DNA of 64,000 bases from Euzebyales bacterium (GTDB lineage: Bacteria > Actinomycetota > Nitriliruptoria > Euzebyales > JAHELV01): contig DATHVN010000163.1 of NCBI GenBank assembly GCA_035461305.1, positions 5,840 to 69,839 of the forward strand. Reading direction: 5' to 3'. The position numbers and the translations under genes were made by a program. Each line of letters opens with the position of its first letter. Position 1 is the stretch's first letter. The notes beneath the pieces are model-generated. The model saw nothing but the letters and a program-made list of their open reading frames with translations, had not been told where the DNA came from and did no database searches. This document shows, one piece after another, positions 50,372-55,332 of this stretch.

Positions 50372-52108
50372 CTAGGTACGGTCGTACGGGATGGCGTGGA
50401 TCGTGCCGTCGGCATCGATCGTCACGAGCAGGCGCGTGTGCGGCGAGGCCATGATCGCCGCCGCCACGGCGTCGGTGTCGACGTCCGCCGCGTCCACGTC
50501 GAGCCGGTGCAGCCTCCGTACGCTCGCACCGGTGCGTCGCGCCAGCGCCGCCGCCATCTCCTCGCCGTCGGCGCTGACGAGCAGCACGTGACGGCGCGGT
50601 GGCTGCGACGGCGCCGCCGCCCGGTCCTCCTGGAGCACCGCCCAGTGGTACGCGGACACCGCACCGGCGGCGACGACCAGGGCGATGGCGACACGCATGT
50701 CGTACAGGACGGTCGCTGCGAGCCGACCCTCGAGCAGGTCGCGGAAGACGACGAACAGGGTGGCGACCGCGCTGATCGCAGCCGTCAGGCCGCTCACGCC
50801 GAAGATCACCAGCACGTACGTCCGGCGTGACGGCGACCGCCGTTCGACCGGGGGACCGGTCCGCACCCGGCCCTGCAGCCTGCGCCAGAACAGCGCCCAC
50901 AGCGGCGTGCCGACGATCAGCAGCGTCAGCGCGAGGGCCACCGTGTCGCCGCCACGTACCCCGGACCCGGCGAGCGGCACCGGCGCCACGGCCTCGATCA
51001 GCGCCGCGAGCGCCATCGTCAGCCCGCACGTCGCGGCGACGAGCCCCACCGCTGCCACGAGGTGCTCGTAGGCACGGTCCGGCTCCGACCGCTCACGACC
51101 CGCGATGCGGAGCACGGCCGCGTGGTACCGCCACACCCAGAGGCCGACCGCGGTGACCGCCACCGCGCGCGGCGTGGCCGCGAAGTGGACCGCCGCCCCC
51201 GTCCCGGGGCTGCCGATGGCCCATGCGAGCAGCGCGTACAGCGTCACGCCGGCGGACACGGTGGTCGTCAGCAGGCCGCCCAGCACGCCGACGACGAGCA
51301 CGTAGAGGTGCCAGAGCGTGTCCCGTCGTGCGGAGATCGCGTGGTGCAGCCAGTGGAACCACCAGACCAGCGCCCCGAGGGTTGCGCTCACCAGGCTGCG
51401 ACGCAGTGCCTCCGTGGACCAACCCTCGATCAGCGCGGCGCCGGCGATCGCCCGGTAGGCCTGCCCCGTCCCGAACGACAGCACGCCGACCGCGCCGGCG
51501 GCCAGCGTGACGAGGCCGACCGCCGATCCGACGAGCGCCACAAGGTGCCGGCGTGGGCCGGCGGGAGCCAGCGGCGACCGCTCCAGGAACCACGCGTGCA
51601 ACCCCCAGACAGGACCCCACACCACCGCCGCCCCCACCGCCTGCGGAACCACGGCGTCCGTCGTCACCAGGCCGGTCCCGACGCGGATCACGTTGACGAG
51701 GGCGACGACCAGCGTGACCGTCGCCGCGATTGTGACGTACACCGCCCAGGCCGTGGACGATCGTTCGTCGACGTCGCGGGCCAGGCGACGGCGCACGGCG
51801 CGCCACAGGACCAGCCACAGCGGCACGGCGACGATCGTCAGCGACAGGCCCAGCGCCGTCTCGGCGGGCGCGGGACCGACGAAACGGCCGTCCACCGGCA
51901 GGGCGGCCGTGACCAGGCCGGTCACCCCGCTGGCGGCGGAGAAGAGCGCCACCAGCAGGAAGAGGTACTGCAGCAGGCGCCGCAGCGAGCGCTGGTCGCC
52001 GTCGCCGTCGCCGTCGCCGTCGCCGTCGCGGTTGTCCCGCCCTCGCCCGTGCCACGTGAGCACGGCCAGCGACACTCCGAGCACGAGCAGGCCCACGATG
52101 AGGATCAC
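50372..52108 (-). CDS. polytopic membrane protein (about 14 TM) with C-terminal soluble domain, unknown function
   Basis: Long hydrophobic repeats with recurring W/H-rich loops (WFHWLHH, WVWRYHAAV, YHWAVLQ). An N-terminal (GD)n tract is present. The start overlaps the upstream stop (ATGA at 52105-52108). Confidence 0.75.
   Translation of the reverse strand: MILIVGLLVLGVSLAVLTWHGRGRDNRDGDGDGDGDGDQRSLRRLLQYLFLLVALFSAASGVTGLVTAALPVDGRFVGPAPAETALGLSLTIVAVPLWLVLWRAVRRRLARDVDERSSTAWAVYVTIAATVTLVVALVNVIRVGTGLVTTDAVVPQAVGAAVVWGPVWGLHAWFLERSPLAPAGPRRHLVALVGSAVGLVTLAAGAVGVLSFGTGQAYRAIAGAALIEGWSTEALRRSLVSATLGALVWWFHWLHHAISARRDTLWHLYVLVVGVLGGLLTTTVSAGVTLYALLAWAIGSPGTGAAVHFAATPRAVAVTAVGLWVWRYHAAVLRIAGRERSEPDRAYEHLVAAVGLVAATCGLTMALAALIEAVAPVPLAGSGVRGGDTVALALTLLIVGTPLWALFWRRLQGRVRTGPPVERRSPSRRTYVLVIFGVSGLTAAISAVATLFVVFRDLLEGRLAATVLYDMRVAIALVVAAGAVSAYHWAVLQEDRAAAPSQPPRRHVLLVSADGEEMAAALARRTGASVRRLHRLDVDAADVDTDAVAAAIMASPHTRLLVTIDADGTIHAIPYDRT
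51995..52030 (-). repeat. hexanucleotide microsatellite (GTCGCC)5 + GTCGCG, encoding RDGDGDGDGDGD
   Basis: Read directly from the sequence. It is in frame inside CDS 50372..52108. Confidence 0.9.
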
Positions 52109-52590
52109 GGCTGCCCCTCACACGACACCAGCGGCCAAGGGATGCCGGTAAACCGCCATGCGCCGACCTCGCGGGTGAGCCTGAACAGCTCCGTCGTGCT
52201 GTCCACCGCCTCGAAGGGCGGCAGTGCCGTGTTCGGGTGCAGCACGACGCGCACCTCAGCGCGGTCGCCCGTGACCTGGACGTCGTCGAGGTCTGCGGTC
52301 AGGCCCTCGGGGACCCACGTCGCGCGGAACGCCGACGCGGGGCAGCGCTCGGCCGTCGCCTCGGACAGGTAGCCTGTCGCAGCTGCGTGGTCATGCTCGA
52401 GCACGGCCTGCAGGTATGCCTGGACGACGCCCTCGGGGCGGCCGATGTCGAGCGACGTCGGTGGGCGCAGCGCCGCGATGACCAGGCCGACGACGAGGGC
52501 GACGACCACCAGGCCAGCGAGGATCCACAGCAGCGACGTCGGGCGTCGCAGCCGGGTCCGGTGCGGCTCGAGGTCGCTGGCGGTCATCAC
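52105..52590 (-). CDS. single-pass membrane-anchored protein of unknown function
   Basis: One TM segment (LLWILAGLVVVALVVGLVIAAL) is followed by a soluble domain (VVQAYLQAVLEHDHAAATGYL...). It lies 32 nt downstream of the SdhD-like gene on the same strand. Confidence 0.65.
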   Translation of the reverse strand: MMTASDLEPHRTRLRRPTSLLWILAGLVVVALVVGLVIAALRPPTSLDIGRPEGVVQAYLQAVLEHDHAAATGYLSEATAERCPASAFRATWVPEGLTADLDDVQVTGDRAEVRVVLHPNTALPPFEAVDSTTELFRLTREVGAWRFTGIPWPLVSCEGQP

Positions 52591-52622
52591 GGGTCACTGT
52601 CCTCCGTCCGAGCGTCCAATGG

Positions 52623-53409: not shown

Positions 53410-53413
53410 GGTG

Positions 53414-54172
53414 TCACCTCACGCGTCCGCGCAGCCGTCGTCGCAGCAGGTCGCGACGTTGCTGCATGATCGACTCCGCCGGATCGACCTGCTGCGGGCA
53501 GCGCGTCGTGCACTCCCACGCACCGTGGCAACGCCACACGCCGTGCTCACCGTCGGCGAGGTCGAGCAGGCGCTCGCGCTCCTGCGGGTCGTCGGTCTCG
53601 ACACGTGCTCGAGCGAGCGCCGCCAGCATCGCCGGGCCGCGGAACCGGTCGTCGGTCGCCATCGTCGGGCACGCACTGATGCAGATCCCGCACTCGACGC
53701 AGTTCTCGAACCGGTTGAACCGCGCGAGGCCGTCCGCGACCTCGACGGGCCGGGCACGCAGGTCGCCACCGTCCGTTGGGATCGGCAGCCGGTCCTCGGC
53801 TGTGCGCGTGATCGTCATGGTCGACGCGCGCATGCGGTCGAAGAACCCGGCGACGTCCACAGTGAGGTCGCCGGCGAGCGGCAGGTTGCGCAATGGCTCG
53901 ACCCGGACGGGGCTGCGCTGCCGCAACGCCTCCGACAGGTCCGCGATGCACGGCAGCGCCTCGACGCCGTTGACCAGTATCCCGCAGGTCCCGCAGGACG
54001 CGTGGTGGCAGGCGTGGCGAAACGTCAGCGACCGGTCGTGGCGCGCCCAGACCGCCTCGATCGCGTCGAGCACGGTGGCGTCGTCGTGGACGGTGACCTC
54101 ATGCTCCTCGAACCGGCGGTCGGTGCCGCCCGGCCCGCAACGGAACACCTCCAGGGTCGCGGTGATCGTCAT
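53414..54172 (-). CDS. succinate dehydrogenase/fumarate reductase-type iron-sulfur subunit (SdhB/FrdB-like)
   Basis: 2Fe-2S ligands CHHASCGTCGILVNGVEALPC, 4Fe-4S CVECGICISACP and a third cluster CHGAWECTTRCP are present. Start [10 protein letters not shown] at 54172 by codon count. Confidence 0.85.
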   Translation of the reverse strand: MTITATLEVFRCGPGGTDRRFEEHEVTVHDDATVLDAIEAVWARHDRSLTFRHACHHASCGTCGILVNGVEALPCIADLSEALRQRSPVRVEPLRNLPLAGDLTVDVAGFFDRMRASTMTITRTAEDRLPIPTDGGDLRARPVEVADGLARFNRFENCVECGICISACPTMATDDRFRGPAMLAALARARVETDDPQERERLLDLADGEHGVWRCHGAWECTTRCPQQVDPAESIMQQRRDLLRRRLRGRVR

Positions 54173-55332
54173 GACCTCGCGTGGAAGCGTCGATGGTCGA
54201 CGAGCGGGATGTCTGTTGTGCGGCACGGCGCGTCGACGCCGAGCTTGCCGCACACGATGTCGGCGACCTTCTCGGCCATGGCACGGGCCGTCGTCGTCTT
54301 TCCACCCGAGATCGTCACGAAGCCCTCCACGCCGTCGGCCTTGTGGTCGAAGCACTCGAACGTGCGGCTGACCAGCCGGGCGTCGACCCCCGGCTTGCTG
54401 ATCAGCGGACGGGCCACCGCCATGACGCCGCGGATGCTGGCGGCGGCGATCTCCGGGAGCAGGTCCCGGCCACGGTCGAGCATCCGCGTGACGTGGTCGG
54501 CGGGGATCGGGATGTGGTCGGGGTCGTCGACGCTCCACGACGTCGTGCCGATGATCGACGTCGTGCGCTGGGGCACCACGATGTCGCCGTCGGACGGCAC
54601 GTTGAGCCGGTTGATGACCATGTTGTTGAGCCGTCGCCCCATCGTCACCATCACCCCGGGCGTCGGGCTGACCGGGACGTCGACCTCCGCCATGGACGCC
54701 AGGTGCTCCGCCCACGGCCCACCGGCGTTTATGACGAGGTCGGCGCCCAGTGTGTCGGTGCGTCCCGTGAGGCGGTCCACGACGGTCACGCCCGTGACGT
54801 AGCCGTTGGTGCTGTCGAGGTCGACGACCTCGGTGAAGGTCCTGACCTGCGCGCCGTTGGCCTGCGCGGTCGCGAGGAACGCGAGGCAGAACCGGTAGGG
54901 CTCGAACACGCCGTCGGGCACCTGCACCGCCGCGAGGACGTCTGGTGTGAGGAACGGCTCGAGCTGCCTCGCGCGGTCCGGTTCCAGCTCGCGCGCCGGG
55001 ATGTGGCAGCGGGCGCAGGCCTCGAGGAAGGCGTCCTTGTAGGCCAGGTCTTCCTCGGTGGTCGCCACGAACAGCCCGTCGTTCAGCTCCAGCAGGTCGG
55101 GCATGATCCGGCGCAGCGCCAGGTTCTCGTCGATGCACTCGATGCCCGCCTCGTCGTCGGTCACGCAGTAGCGACCACCGGAGTGCAGCAGGCAGTGGTT
55201 GCGCCCGGTCGTGCCGGACGCAACCTCACCGCGTTCGACGACGACGACGTCGACGCCGCGCAGCGCGAGGTCGTGCGCCGTCGCGGCCCCTGTCGAGCCC
55301 GCGCCGATCACGATGACCCGTGGACGACCCAT
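54169..55332 (-). CDS. GlpA-like FAD-dependent glycerol-3-phosphate dehydrogenase core, lacking the C-terminal BFD-like 2Fe-2S domain
   Basis: [64 protein letters not shown]...IIGTTS and [27 protein letters not shown] closely parallel E. coli GlpA. It is 387 aa versus 542 aa for GlpA. Its stop overlaps the SdhB-like start (ATGA). Confidence 0.85.

What the first reader, a model, noticed from the sequence alone, without database searches (positions are those of the whole stretch)
50372..55332. Chimeric respiratory operon: truncated GlpA-like flavoprotein wired to an SdhB/SdhC/SdhD-like module
The first gene (54169-55332) aligns by eye along its length with anaerobic glycerol-3-phosphate dehydrogenase GlpA ([43 protein letters not shown]...CGKLG). 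It stops at 387 aa and lacks the BFD-like 2Fe-2S tail. No glpB or glpC follows.

Instead it is translationally coupled (ATGA at 54169-54172) to a succinate dehydrogenase-type three-cluster Fe-S protein (53414-54172). Two small three-helix SdhC/SdhD-like anchors follow (53011-53409 and 52623-53009). After these come a single-pass protein and a roughly 14-TM protein, which are coupled to each other by ATGA at 52105-52108.

The flavoprotein of a complex-II scaffold therefore appears to have been replaced by a G3P-dehydrogenase-type DAO flavoprotein. This predicts a novel substrate:quinone oxidoreductase; the substrate could be G3P or a related hydroxy/amino acid.
Basis: partly seen in the sequence, partly recalled or inferred. 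Interest (0 to 1): 0.65.

Follow-up and report, generated by a model that had tools for sequence, protein, structure and literature searches.

The report
Glycerol-3-phosphate dehydrogenase on a complex-II chassis
Four tightly packed genes encode a respiratory enzyme in which a tail-less GlpA-type glycerol-3-phosphate flavoprotein sits on succinate-dehydrogenase-type iron-sulfur and di-heme membrane subunits; the design is real and widespread in bacteria, was proposed from gene order in an archaeon in 2025, and has never been tested biochemically.

Summary
On the minus strand, 52623-55332 encodes four genes. They are a 387-aa GlpA-like flavoprotein without the C-terminal 2Fe-2S domain, an SdhB-type protein with three Fe-S clusters, and two three-helix SdhC/SdhD-type anchors. 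The genes overlap or lie 1-4 nt apart.

The same order is found in 67 of 71 related bacterial loci with enough sequence downstream (Chloroflexota, Verrucomicrobiota, Dormibacterota, Nitriliruptoria). In 44 of 61 loci with enough sequence upstream, glpK lies directly upstream. glpF and dhaKL usually accompany it.

All 11 cluster cysteines and four heme-ligand histidines are invariant. The histidines align with the two-heme ligands of Mycobacterium smegmatis Sdh2.

The best reading is a G3P:menaquinone oxidoreductase.

The two downstream genes are not part of the conserved unit. The closest relatives lack them, and one relative carries a deletion scar there. Also, the architecture ("GlpA-SdhBCD") was already described from synteny in Thermofilum pendens (Commun Biol 2025), although that paper says bacterial glpA always comes with glpBC.

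Verdict: a real, correctly read bacterial member of a recently proposed and biochemically untested enzyme type. Interest is moderate.

The parts
54169..55332 (-). glpA' : tail-less GlpA-type FAD flavoprotein (387 aa), the predicted G3P-oxidising subunit
   Evidence: TIGR03377 GlpA scores 441.6 bits over profile positions 2-380 of 530; Pfam DAO 180.8 bits. A GAGGAG ribosome-binding site lies before the ATG at 55332. The AF2 model has pLDDT 93.3, and its best PDB fold matches are GlpD and GlpO, TM 0.82-0.84. All 116 positions invariant in glpK-linked orthologues are kept.
53414..54172 (-). sdhB' : SdhB/FrdB-type iron-sulfur subunit (252 aa) with ligands for [2Fe-2S], [4Fe-4S] and [3Fe-4S] clusters
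   Evidence: Fer2_3 plus Fer4_8; TIGR00384 scores 155 bits against a cutoff of 88. The best PDB sequence hits are E. coli FrdB 1KF6_B (5e-30) and M. smegmatis Sdh2 6LUM_B. Cys55, 60, 63, 75, 158, 161, 164, 168, 215, 221 and 225 are 100% conserved in 77 sequences. The start codon overlaps the glpA' stop as ATGA.
53011..53409 (-). sdhC' : three-helix membrane anchor (132 aa) with two conserved heme-ligand histidines (His48, His88)
   Evidence: Sdh_cyt scores 50.8 bits. The best PDB hit is 6LUM_C at 2.6e-14. His48 and His88 align with 6LUM SdhC His47 (heme bD) and His87 (heme bP). Both histidines are 100% conserved in 61 sequences. Three hydrophobic helices are predicted.
52623..53009 (-). sdhD' : second three-helix membrane anchor (128 aa) with conserved His41, His46 and His82
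   Evidence: Sdh_cyt scores 34.9 bits; TIGR02968 scores 35 bits, below its cutoff of 41.8. His41 and His82 align with the TM1 and TM2 heme-ligand positions of 6LUM_C. They are 100% conserved in 72 sequences.
55333..55586 (.). Divergent intergenic region between glpA' and a DUF4389 membrane-protein gene; presumed promoter region
   Evidence: Read directly from the sequence. No sigma-70-like match was found in this high-GC DNA. The region is 94% identical in L086, which is too close for footprinting. The promoter role is inferred only.
52105..52590 (-). Rv0361-family single-pass membrane protein (161 aa). It is co-directional and starts 30 nt after sdhD', but it is NOT part of the conserved module
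   Evidence: NF051431 scores 38.2 bits against a cutoff of 37. One TM helix is predicted. There is no homologue in any of the other loci searched. L086 retains only a 246-bp fragment of it.
50372..52108 (-). Polytopic membrane protein with four DUF5671 repeats (578 aa). A GTGA overlap couples it to the preceding gene; it is NOT part of the conserved module
   Evidence: DUF5671 scores 142.8 bits in 4 stretches. The GTGA overlap is shown. The gene is absent from all related loci.

Best explanation
Genes 52623-55332 encode a four-subunit, membrane-bound glycerol-3-phosphate:menaquinone oxidoreductase of the 'GlpA-SdhBCD' type.

Proposed electron path:
1. The tail-less GlpA-type flavoprotein oxidises sn-glycerol-3-phosphate to DHAP on its FAD.
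2. Canonical GlpA passes electrons to its own C-terminal BFD-like [2Fe-2S] domain and then to GlpB/GlpC. Here, the FAD instead passes them to the N-terminal [2Fe-2S] domain of an SdhB-type subunit.
3. Electrons then run through [4Fe-4S] and [3Fe-4S] clusters into a two-polypeptide, six-helix anchor.
4. The anchor carries four invariant histidines that match the ligands of two stacked b hemes, as in type-A complex II such as mycobacterial Sdh2. It reduces the quinone pool.

Shown here: domain content, intact cofactor ligands, tight gene coupling, cross-phylum co-conservation of the four genes, and their placement inside glycerol-uptake and glycerol-kinase operons in relatives.

Inferred: physical complex formation, G3P as substrate in this organism, menaquinone as acceptor, the presence of two hemes, and which quinone site is used.
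For: - **Family assignments:**
- **GlpA rather than GlpD affinity:** 441.6 bits against 90 bits or less.
- **Fold:** a confident model (pLDDT 93.3) is closest to G3P dehydrogenases and oxidases.
- **Gene coupling:** an ATGA overlap and spacers of 1-4 nt.
- **Abundance:** more than 3,500 homologues of about 385 aa at E<=1e-20. Sources name them only 'FAD-dependent oxidoreductase' or 'glycerol-3-phosphate dehydrogenase'.
- **Distribution:** 292 species genomes carry a relative.
- **Synteny:** 67 of 71 loci have sdhB'-sdhC'-sdhD' directly downstream on the same strand, and 44 of 61 have glpK directly upstream. Chloroflexota operons read glpF-dhaK-dhaL-glpK-glpA'-sdhB'-sdhC'-sdhD'.
- **Cofactor ligands:** 11 of 11 cluster cysteines and four heme histidines are invariant. 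The histidines align with the bP and bD ligands of 6LUM.
- **Substrate conservation:** the window flavoprotein keeps 116 of 116 positions that are invariant in the glpK-linked orthologues.
- **Shared catalytic motifs:** R54/Y55, R308 and K345 are invariant across this clade and named haloarchaeal GlpAs.
- **Independent proposal:** the same architecture was proposed for T. pendens, whose GlpA homologue 'almost entirely lacks a C-terminal extension'.
Against: - There is no experimental evidence for any member of this type.
- This 64-kb window has no glpK, glpF or other glycerol gene. In Nitriliruptoria, Verrucomicrobiota, Ktedonobacteria and Chloroflexia the module stands alone. The G3P assignment here therefore rests on 68-73% identity to the glpK-linked orthologues.
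- No model of the flavoprotein/SdhB' interface could be made, so the FAD-to-[2Fe-2S] distance is untested.
- Four of 71 loci lack a complete Sdh module after the flavoprotein gene. L082, L083 and L085 (59-61% identity) have no Sdh-like hit at all. L066 has sdhB' but no detectable anchors.
- A di-heme anchor is not needed energetically for the exergonic G3P-to-menaquinone step. Its role is therefore unexplained.
Confidence: 0.8

Rival explanations
1. The architecture is the same, but in lineages where the module stands alone (including this window) the flavoprotein oxidises something other than G3P, such as another 2-hydroxy acid or an amino acid.
For: No glycerol gene was found in the 64-kb window. 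The module is not glpK-linked in Nitriliruptorales, Verrucomicrobiota, Ktedonobacteraceae or Chloroflexia. DAO-family enzymes cover many substrates.
Against: The window protein keeps 116 of 116 positions that are invariant in glpK-linked orthologues and is 68-73% identical to them overall. The GlpA HMM score is about five times that of any other DAO subfamily. G3P can also come from phospholipid turnover without a nearby glpK (general knowledge).
Confidence: 0.08
2. The unit is a six-gene operon or complex. The Rv0361-family single-pass protein and the DUF5671 polytopic protein would be extra subunits or assembly factors of the dehydrogenase.
For: The two genes are on the same strand and start 30 nt after sdhD'. 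No terminator-like site was found between them, and the pair is coupled by a GTGA overlap. Mycobacterial Sdh2 has a small extra single-helix subunit, SdhF (PMC7447783 abstract).
Against: Neither protein has a homologue in any of the other loci searched. Relatives at 95%, 87% and 85% identity have only the four genes. L086 carries a deletion scar that removes these genes and leaves the module intact.
Confidence: 0.07
3. Adjacency without partnership: SdhB'C'D' serve a canonical SdhA encoded elsewhere, forming an ordinary succinate:quinone or quinol:fumarate oxidoreductase. The GlpA-like protein would be a soluble or monotopic enzyme that merely lies next to them.
For: SdhB' passes the generic SdhB/FrdB model TIGR00384. 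Tail-less GlpA relatives without any Sdh genes exist in L083, L088 and L089.
Against: There is an ATGA start/stop overlap. No SdhA-type gene was seen at the loci whose neighbours were annotated (L001, L003, L005, L086, L087), and none was found in the window. Order and strand are conserved in 67 of 71 loci across phyla and inside glycerol operons. SdhB' forms its own clade with an invariant C-H-H-x-x-C-G-x-C signature. It scores only 58-108 bits against solved SdhB/FrdB chains, yet is 41-81% identical among GlpA-linked copies.
Confidence: 0.03
4. The enzyme runs in reverse in vivo, as a menaquinol:DHAP reductase that makes G3P for lipid synthesis, by analogy with fumarate reductases.
For: The best solved sequence match of SdhB' is a fumarate reductase subunit. 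Complex II enzymes are reversible (general knowledge).
Against: The DHAP/G3P couple (about -190 mV) lies well below menaquinone (about -74 mV), so reduction of DHAP by menaquinol is strongly uphill (textbook values, from memory). Placement after glpF and glpK indicates catabolism.
Confidence: 0.02

Closest known systems
'GlpA-SdhBCD' type G3P dehydrogenase predicted in Thermofilum pendens and relatives (Tpen_1127, UniProt A1RZ95; Schmerling et al., Commun Biol 2025, PMC11962113)
   Same: A GlpA-clade flavoprotein with essentially no C-terminal extension, followed by genes for SdhB, SdhC and SdhD counterparts. It is proposed to anchor the enzyme and carry electrons to quinone.
   Different: The published cases are archaeal and rest on synteny only. 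The paper states that bacterial glpA 'consistently' comes with glpB and glpC. The window's clade is bacterial, very large (more than 3,500 proteins and 292 species genomes), and usually embedded in glpF-dhaKL-glpK operons. Orthology to Tpen_1127 could not be tested because no sequence was accessible.
Canonical anaerobic G3P dehydrogenase GlpABC (E. coli, haloarchaea)
   Same: The catalytic FAD domain is homologous. TIGR03377 scores 441.6 bits, and the window protein is 40-45% identical to named haloarchaeal GlpAs.
   Different: The BFD-like [2Fe-2S] tail (about 150 aa with 4 or more Cys in long forms) is absent. There is no GlpB or GlpC. The electron-transfer and anchor module comes from the complex II family instead.
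Type-A di-heme succinate:menaquinone oxidoreductase, M. smegmatis Sdh2 (PDB 6LUM, PMC7447783)
   Same: 6LUM chains B and C are among the best sequence matches in the PDB for SdhB' and SdhC'. Both have two three-helix anchors. The four histidines align with the axial ligands of hemes bP and bD.
   Different: The flavoprotein is a DAO/GlpA-fold enzyme, not SdhA. The substrate couple has a much lower potential, so no pmf assistance is needed. No SdhF-like gene was identified.
GlpA-CoxG G3P dehydrogenase of Sulfolobus acidocaldarius (Saci_2032/2031)
   Same: It is also a GlpA-clade flavoprotein lacking the BFD domain and GlpBC. This enzyme has been shown experimentally to reduce quinones.
   Different: It has a tail of about 50 aa and a CoxG-like peripheral anchor, with no Fe-S or heme relay. 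In a rough NJ tree, forms with a tail of that length fall in a neighbouring block rather than with the window protein; their identity as the CoxG type is inferred from tail length only.
Aerobic GlpD / GlpO
   Same: They use the same substrate and the same DAO fold. They are the best structural matches to the model.
   Different: GlpD is a monotopic homodimer that reduces quinone directly. GlpD HMM scores are low (90 bits or less against cutoffs of 352-360).

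Membership tests
Canonical GlpA (NCBIfam TIGR03377 / PRK11101 equivalogs) | N-terminal DAO-type FAD/G3P domain homologous to GlpA | tested here: met
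   441.6 and 366 bits over residues 5-382. R54/Y55, R308 and K345 are invariant with named GlpAs.
Canonical GlpA (NCBIfam TIGR03377 / PRK11101 equivalogs) | Whole-protein score above the curated cutoff | tested here: not met
   441.6 is below 552.8, and 366 is below 425.
Canonical GlpA (NCBIfam TIGR03377 / PRK11101 equivalogs) | C-terminal BFD-like [2Fe-2S] domain (PF04324, four Cys) | tested here: not met
   The protein ends at profile position 380 of 530, and there is no PF04324 hit. Long homologues carry PF04324 and 4 or more Cys in the tail.
Canonical GlpA (NCBIfam TIGR03377 / PRK11101 equivalogs) | Encoded with glpB and glpC | tested here: not met
   The downstream genes are SdhB/C/D-type. 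The GlpC models match only the ferredoxin part of SdhB' (39.6 bits for PRK11168 against a cutoff of 278; 17.2 bits for TIGR03379 against 279.9).
GlpA-SdhBCD type G3PDH (PMC11962113) | GlpA-clade flavoprotein with little or no C-terminal extension | tested here: met
   387 aa, with 0 residues beyond the DAO fold. In a rough NJ tree it groups with tail-less representatives.
GlpA-SdhBCD type G3PDH (PMC11962113) | glpA followed directly by sdhB, sdhC and sdhD counterparts | tested here: met
   Shown in the window, and in 67 of 71 related loci.
GlpA-SdhBCD type G3PDH (PMC11962113) | Genomic link to glycerol kinase or glycerol uptake | tested here: inconclusive
   There is none in this window. The link is present in 44 of 61 related loci.
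GlpA-SdhBCD type G3PDH (PMC11962113) | Common descent with T. pendens Tpen_1127 and the following genes | not testable with these tools
   No T. pendens sequence was obtainable. The afdb50 library was unavailable, and the one archaeal-looking representative tried turned out to be Nanohaloarchaea-like.
GlpA-SdhBCD type G3PDH (PMC11962113) | G3P:quinone oxidoreductase activity of the complex | not testable with these tools
   No member has been characterised.
Complex II superfamily (SQR/QFR) | SdhB-type subunit with ligands for [2Fe-2S], [4Fe-4S] and [3Fe-4S] | tested here: met
   The motifs are C55-x4-C-x2-C-x11-C, C158-x2-C-x2-C-x3-CP and C215-x5-C-x3-CP, all invariant in 77 sequences. TIGR00384 is above its cutoff.
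Complex II superfamily (SQR/QFR) | Sdh_cyt-type anchor(s) with bis-His heme ligands | tested here: met
   PF01127 is above its cutoff for both proteins. His48/His88 and His41/His82 are invariant and align with the 6LUM ligands. Heme content itself is inferred.
Complex II superfamily (SQR/QFR) | SdhA/FrdA-type flavoprotein (FAD_binding_2 plus Succ_DH_flav_C) | tested here: not met
   The flavoprotein is DAO family. There is only a 32-bit partial FAD_binding_2 match to the Rossmann part and no Succ_DH_flav_C. No sdhA was found among the 48 window ORFs scanned with Pfam.
GlpD (aerobic G3PDH) | Score above the GlpD equivalog cutoffs, plus the C-terminal dimerisation domain | tested here: not met
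   90.6 and 69.9 bits against cutoffs of 360 and 352.

The most novel reading that the evidence does not exclude
This bacterial clade would be an unrecognised third major class of respiratory G3P dehydrogenase, alongside GlpD and GlpABC, and the default one in Chloroflexota glycerol operons. Its di-heme type-A anchor would carry electrons across the membrane to a distal menaquinone site. G3P oxidation would then be electrogenic, with a bioenergetic cost or a regulatory role that GlpD and GlpABC lack. More broadly, it would show that the SdhBCD module is a portable quinone-reducing chassis that can accept a flavoprotein of a different fold.
Probability: 0.3. Interest if true: 0.65.

Novelty: new member of a known kind. 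Interest (0 to 1): 0.45.

Why it matters
Complex II is normally treated as a fixed four-part machine built around SdhA. Here its Fe-S and heme half serves a flavoprotein of a different fold and substrate.

The arrangement is abundant. Thousands of proteins and at least 292 species genomes carry it, and it sits in the glycerol operons of Chloroflexota. Databases label the catalytic subunit only 'FAD-dependent oxidoreductase' or 'glycerol-3-phosphate dehydrogenase', and the partner as succinate dehydrogenase/fumarate reductase iron-sulfur subunit.

Recognising the unit has three consequences:
- **Metabolic reconstructions:** sdhB/C/D-like genes at these loci should not be counted as TCA-cycle complex II.
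- **Literature:** it extends a 2025 archaeal proposal to bacteria, against that paper's statement that bacterial glpA always comes with glpBC.
- **Experiment:** it gives a defined four-gene target for asking how a DAO-fold flavoprotein docks on SdhB, and why a di-heme anchor is kept for an exergonic reaction.

Tried and rejected
- **First AF2 run** with a 12-sequence alignment gave pLDDT 49.9 and was discarded. A 102-sequence alignment gave pLDDT 93.3.
- **Guessing an archaeal representative:** I picked P0198 by amino-acid composition and searched with it. It proved Nanohaloarchaea/haloarchaea-like. Two of its tail-less relatives have no Sdh genes nearby. This shows that tail-less GlpA forms occur in other contexts, but it gave no link to Thermofilum.
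- **Promoter and terminator scan:** it found nothing usable in this 72% GC DNA.
- **Footprinting the upstream region** against L086 failed because the two are 94% identical. Inverted repeats there are weak.
- **Yeh et al. 2008 GlpD paper:** I looked for it to cite the substrate-binding residues, but it is not held. The residue equivalences to E. coli GlpD are therefore from memory.
- **Response regulator next to the GAF kinase:** none was found.

Full report
**What is in the window**

The window is about 72% GC, and its closest relatives are Euzebyales and Nitriliruptorales assemblies. Six ORFs lie head to tail on the minus strand between 50372 and 55332.

- **Flavoprotein, 54169-55332 (387 aa).** A GAGGAG ribosome-binding site precedes it. 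It is a DAO-family flavoprotein (180.8 bits). It matches the GlpA equivalog TIGR03377 at 441.6 bits, but only over profile positions 2-380 of 530, so it misses the 552.8-bit cutoff. GlpD, GlpO, ThiO, LhgO and the other DAO subfamilies score 90 bits or less.
- **Fe-S protein, 53414-54172 (252 aa).** Its ATG overlaps the flavoprotein stop as ATGA. It has a Fer2_3 domain and a dicluster ferredoxin domain, and it passes the SdhB/FrdB subfamily model TIGR00384 (155 bits, cutoff 88).
- **Two anchors, 53011-53409 and 52623-53009 (132 and 128 aa).** They follow after 4-nt and 1-nt spacers. Both pass Pfam Sdh_cyt, and each has three hydrophobic helices.
- **Two further membrane proteins.** A 161-aa single-pass Rv0361-family protein starts 30 nt further on. 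A GTGA overlap, not ATGA, couples it to a 578-aa protein with four DUF5671 repeats.

**No canonical partners nearby**

The 48 predicted ORFs that I scanned with Pfam include no sdhA, glpB, glpC, glpK or glpF. tblastn of the whole window with GlpK, GlpF and DhaKL queries was also negative. The flanking genes are a divergent DUF4389 membrane protein upstream and a convergent cluster downstream. That cluster reads acyl-CoA-synthetase-like gene, E1 alpha, E1 beta, E2 and ACP.

**Is the four-gene arrangement more than chance?**

- The flavoprotein has more than 3,500 homologues at E<=1e-20. The listed ones are about 385 aa and 68-95% identical. Their sources name them only 'FAD-dependent oxidoreductase' or 'glycerol-3-phosphate dehydrogenase'.
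- A scan of one genome per species found relatives in 292 genomes. The best 80 come from Anaerolineae, Thermoflexales, Ktedonobacteria, Chloroflexia, Verrucomicrobiota, Dormibacterota, Methylomirabilales and Nitriliruptorales.
- Of the 71 loci with at least 1.9 kb downstream, 67 have homologues of the window's SdhB', SdhC' and SdhD' in that order on the same strand. They are 41-81%, 37-76% and 44-75% identical respectively.
- Of the 61 loci with at least 1.7 kb upstream, 44 have glpK immediately upstream.
- In Anaerolineae and Thermoflexus the operon reads glpF-dhaK-dhaL-glpK-glpA'-sdhB'-sdhC'-sdhD'. A protein of about 190 aa and a DhaM/PtsI-like fusion often follow.

This is strong guilt-by-association evidence that the four genes form one functional unit in glycerol catabolism.

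**Are the cofactor sites intact?**

In 77 non-redundant SdhB' sequences, all eleven cysteines of the three canonical motifs are 100% conserved:
- C55-x4-C60-x2-C63-x11-C75
- C158-x2-C161-x2-C164-x3-C168-P
- C215-x5-C221-x3-C225-P

The clade also has an invariant C-H-H signature at the first [2Fe-2S] ligand. E. coli FrdB has C-R-M at the aligned position.

The best solved match for SdhC' is chain C of M. smegmatis Sdh2 (6LUM, E 2.6e-14). SdhC' His48 and His88 align with its His47 and His87. The structure paper identifies those residues as axial ligands of heme bD and heme bP, paired with two histidines of SdhD. SdhD' has invariant His41 and His82 at the equivalent TM1 and TM2 positions, plus an invariant His46. 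The anchor is therefore predicted to be a two-subunit, two-heme (type A) anchor. This is a sequence-based inference.

**Is the substrate G3P in this organism?**

- The window lacks glycerol genes, and in several lineages the module stands alone.
- Against a change of substrate, the window protein keeps all 116 alignment positions that are invariant among 53 glpK-linked orthologues.
- In a 102-sequence alignment with named haloarchaeal GlpAs, the HSGGRY, ARPL and GGK motifs (R54/Y55, R308, K345) are invariant. From memory, these correspond to the substrate-contacting Arg54, Arg317 and Lys354 of E. coli GlpD. I could not retrieve that paper.
- A confident AF2 model (pLDDT 93.3) is closest in the PDB to GlpD and GlpO (TM 0.82-0.84), ahead of glycine, sarcosine and hydroxyglutarate enzymes.

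**Extent of the unit**

The Rv0361-family and DUF5671 genes have no counterpart in any other locus. The closest relatives are L086 (95% protein identity), L087 (Euzebyales, 87%) and L006 (Nitriliruptorales, 85%). All three go from sdhD' directly into other genes.

DNA alignment shows that L086 matches the window through the four genes. It then keeps 246 bp of the 5' end of the Rv0361-family gene and resumes inside the AMP-binding gene. It lacks window positions of about 45.4-52.4 kb. That looks like a deletion scar, so these genes are dispensable neighbours and not subunits.

**Position within the GlpA family**

An exhaustive search of 50%-identity representatives found 431 clusters at E<=1e-30. 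A rough neighbour-joining tree of 140 sequences gives three groupings:
- The window clade sits in a block of tail-less forms, with 0-16 residues beyond the DAO fold and no Cys-rich tail.
- Next to it is a block with tails of about 50 aa that have few or no Cys. The tail length matches the published description of the Sulfolobus-type enzymes.
- Both are separate from most long forms, whose tails of 100-200 aa carry 4 or more Cys (the BFD domain).

Other tail-less forms are scattered elsewhere. Two that I examined (Nanohaloarchaea-like L088 and Haladaptatus L089) have no Sdh genes nearby. The tree is distance-based and unsupported by resampling, so it is only indicative.

**Mechanism proposed**

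G3P is oxidised at the FAD of GlpA'. In GlpABC the first acceptor is GlpA's own BFD-like [2Fe-2S] domain. Here that domain is missing, and the plant-ferredoxin-like [2Fe-2S] domain of SdhB' is the obvious substitute. Electrons then follow the complex II wire ([4Fe-4S], then [3Fe-4S]) to the membrane anchor and quinone.

Actinobacteria and Chloroflexota use menaquinone (general knowledge). The G3P/DHAP couple lies about 115 mV below menaquinone (textbook values, from memory), so the reaction is exergonic and needs no pmf assistance. Why a di-heme anchor is retained, and whether the proximal or a distal quinone site is used, remains open.

**Comparison with the literature**

Full-text search found one relevant work: Schmerling et al. 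(Commun Biol 2025, PMC11962113; bioRxiv 2024). It characterises the GlpA-CoxG enzyme of Sulfolobus. From phylogeny and synteny, it describes a 'GlpA-SdhBCD' type in Thermofilum pendens and related archaea. The flavoprotein of that type 'almost entirely lacks a C-terminal extension'. The same paper states that bacterial glpA consistently co-occurs with glpB and glpC.

No paper in the library describes the bacterial clade or any biochemistry of this type. I could not test whether the bacterial and Thermofilum modules share ancestry.

**Verdict**

It is best filed as a bacterial member of a recently proposed, experimentally untested enzyme type, not as something categorically new. The span should be trimmed to four genes (52623-55332).

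What this analysis adds:
- the size and bacterial breadth of the family;
- its placement inside Chloroflexota glycerol operons;
- the invariant cofactor ligands;
- the predicted di-heme type-A anchor.

Noticed in passing
window 48672-50079: The E2 (dihydrolipoamide acyltransferase-like) gene is split between two reading frames near 48960-49010. The lipoyl domain is in the frame starting at 48672, and the catalytic part is in ORF 49006-50079. This is either a frameshift/pseudogene or a sequencing error. A PP-binding (ACP) gene follows at 50076-50327 and overlaps the E2 stop.
   Followed up: partly
window 45397-52359 versus L086 7214-7576: The 95%-identical relative L086 lacks about 7 kb that are present here: part of the AMP-binding gene, E1 alpha, E1 beta, E2, ACP, the DUF5671 gene and most of the Rv0361-family gene. 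It keeps short fragments of both end genes, which looks like a deletion scar. The four-gene dehydrogenase module is untouched.
   Followed up: yes
window 571-1599, 1500-2834, 2873-6931, 10913-12805, 12616-14991, 29722-30510, 39124-40845, 41220-42440, 57241-57894: The window is unusually rich in stress and hypoxia-type families: Usp proteins at three loci, a GAF-GAF-HisKA_3 sensor kinase, two P-type ATPases (one with a C-terminal hemerythrin domain), a phosphoribosyltransferase-hydrolase fusion, a second phosphoribosyltransferase and a CBS+BON protein. From memory, this resembles the gene content of the mycobacterial DosR dormancy regulon. No response regulator was found next to the kinase.
   Followed up: partly
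L001 11069-14252; also L005, L007, L008 and many other Chloroflexota loci: In Chloroflexota, sdhD' is followed by a conserved protein of about 190-200 aa with no confident family (a weak RrnaAD-like hit only). After that comes a DhaM/HPr/PtsI-like fusion protein. Neither gene is present in the window.
   Followed up: partly
window 53414-54172 (SdhB' residues 55-63): The GlpA-linked SdhB' clade has an invariant C-H-H-x-x-C-G-x-C motif at the [2Fe-2S] site. E. coli FrdB has C-R-M at the aligned position. This may be a signature of docking to, or potential tuning for, the DAO-type flavoprotein.
   Followed up: no
L082, L083, L085 (flavoprotein at 8001-9150) and L066: Three Chloroflexota loci with 59-61% identical flavoproteins have no Sdh-like genes downstream. 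In L083 the neighbours are a LacI-type regulator, a DUF2298 protein and a luciferase-like monooxygenase. These flavoproteins share substitutions at otherwise invariant positions, including F88M and a change at T347. L066 has sdhB' but no detectable anchors.
   Followed up: partly
L088 5001-6170; L089 5001-6245: Other tail-less GlpA relatives stand without SdhBCD, GlpBC or CoxG neighbours. One is Nanohaloarchaea-like (389 aa) and lies next to a proline dehydrogenase gene. The other is from Haladaptatus cibarius (414 aa). Loss of the BFD tail may therefore have occurred in several contexts.
   Followed up: partly
L012 (contig CAZYFM010000199.1): This contig is binned as 'Flavobacteriaceae' but carries a glpK-glpA'-sdhB'C'D' cluster whose GlpK is 81% identical to that of an Anaerolineae locus. 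The contig is probably mis-binned.
   Followed up: no
window 8688-10130 and 6842-8041: An ORF matches the [NiFe]-hydrogenase large subunit only weakly and partially (89.8 bits, N-terminal part of the profile). A nearby ORF has NAD_binding_1 and DHODB_Fe-S_bind domains. Together they may be a hydrogenase-related or diaphorase-like locus.
   Followed up: no
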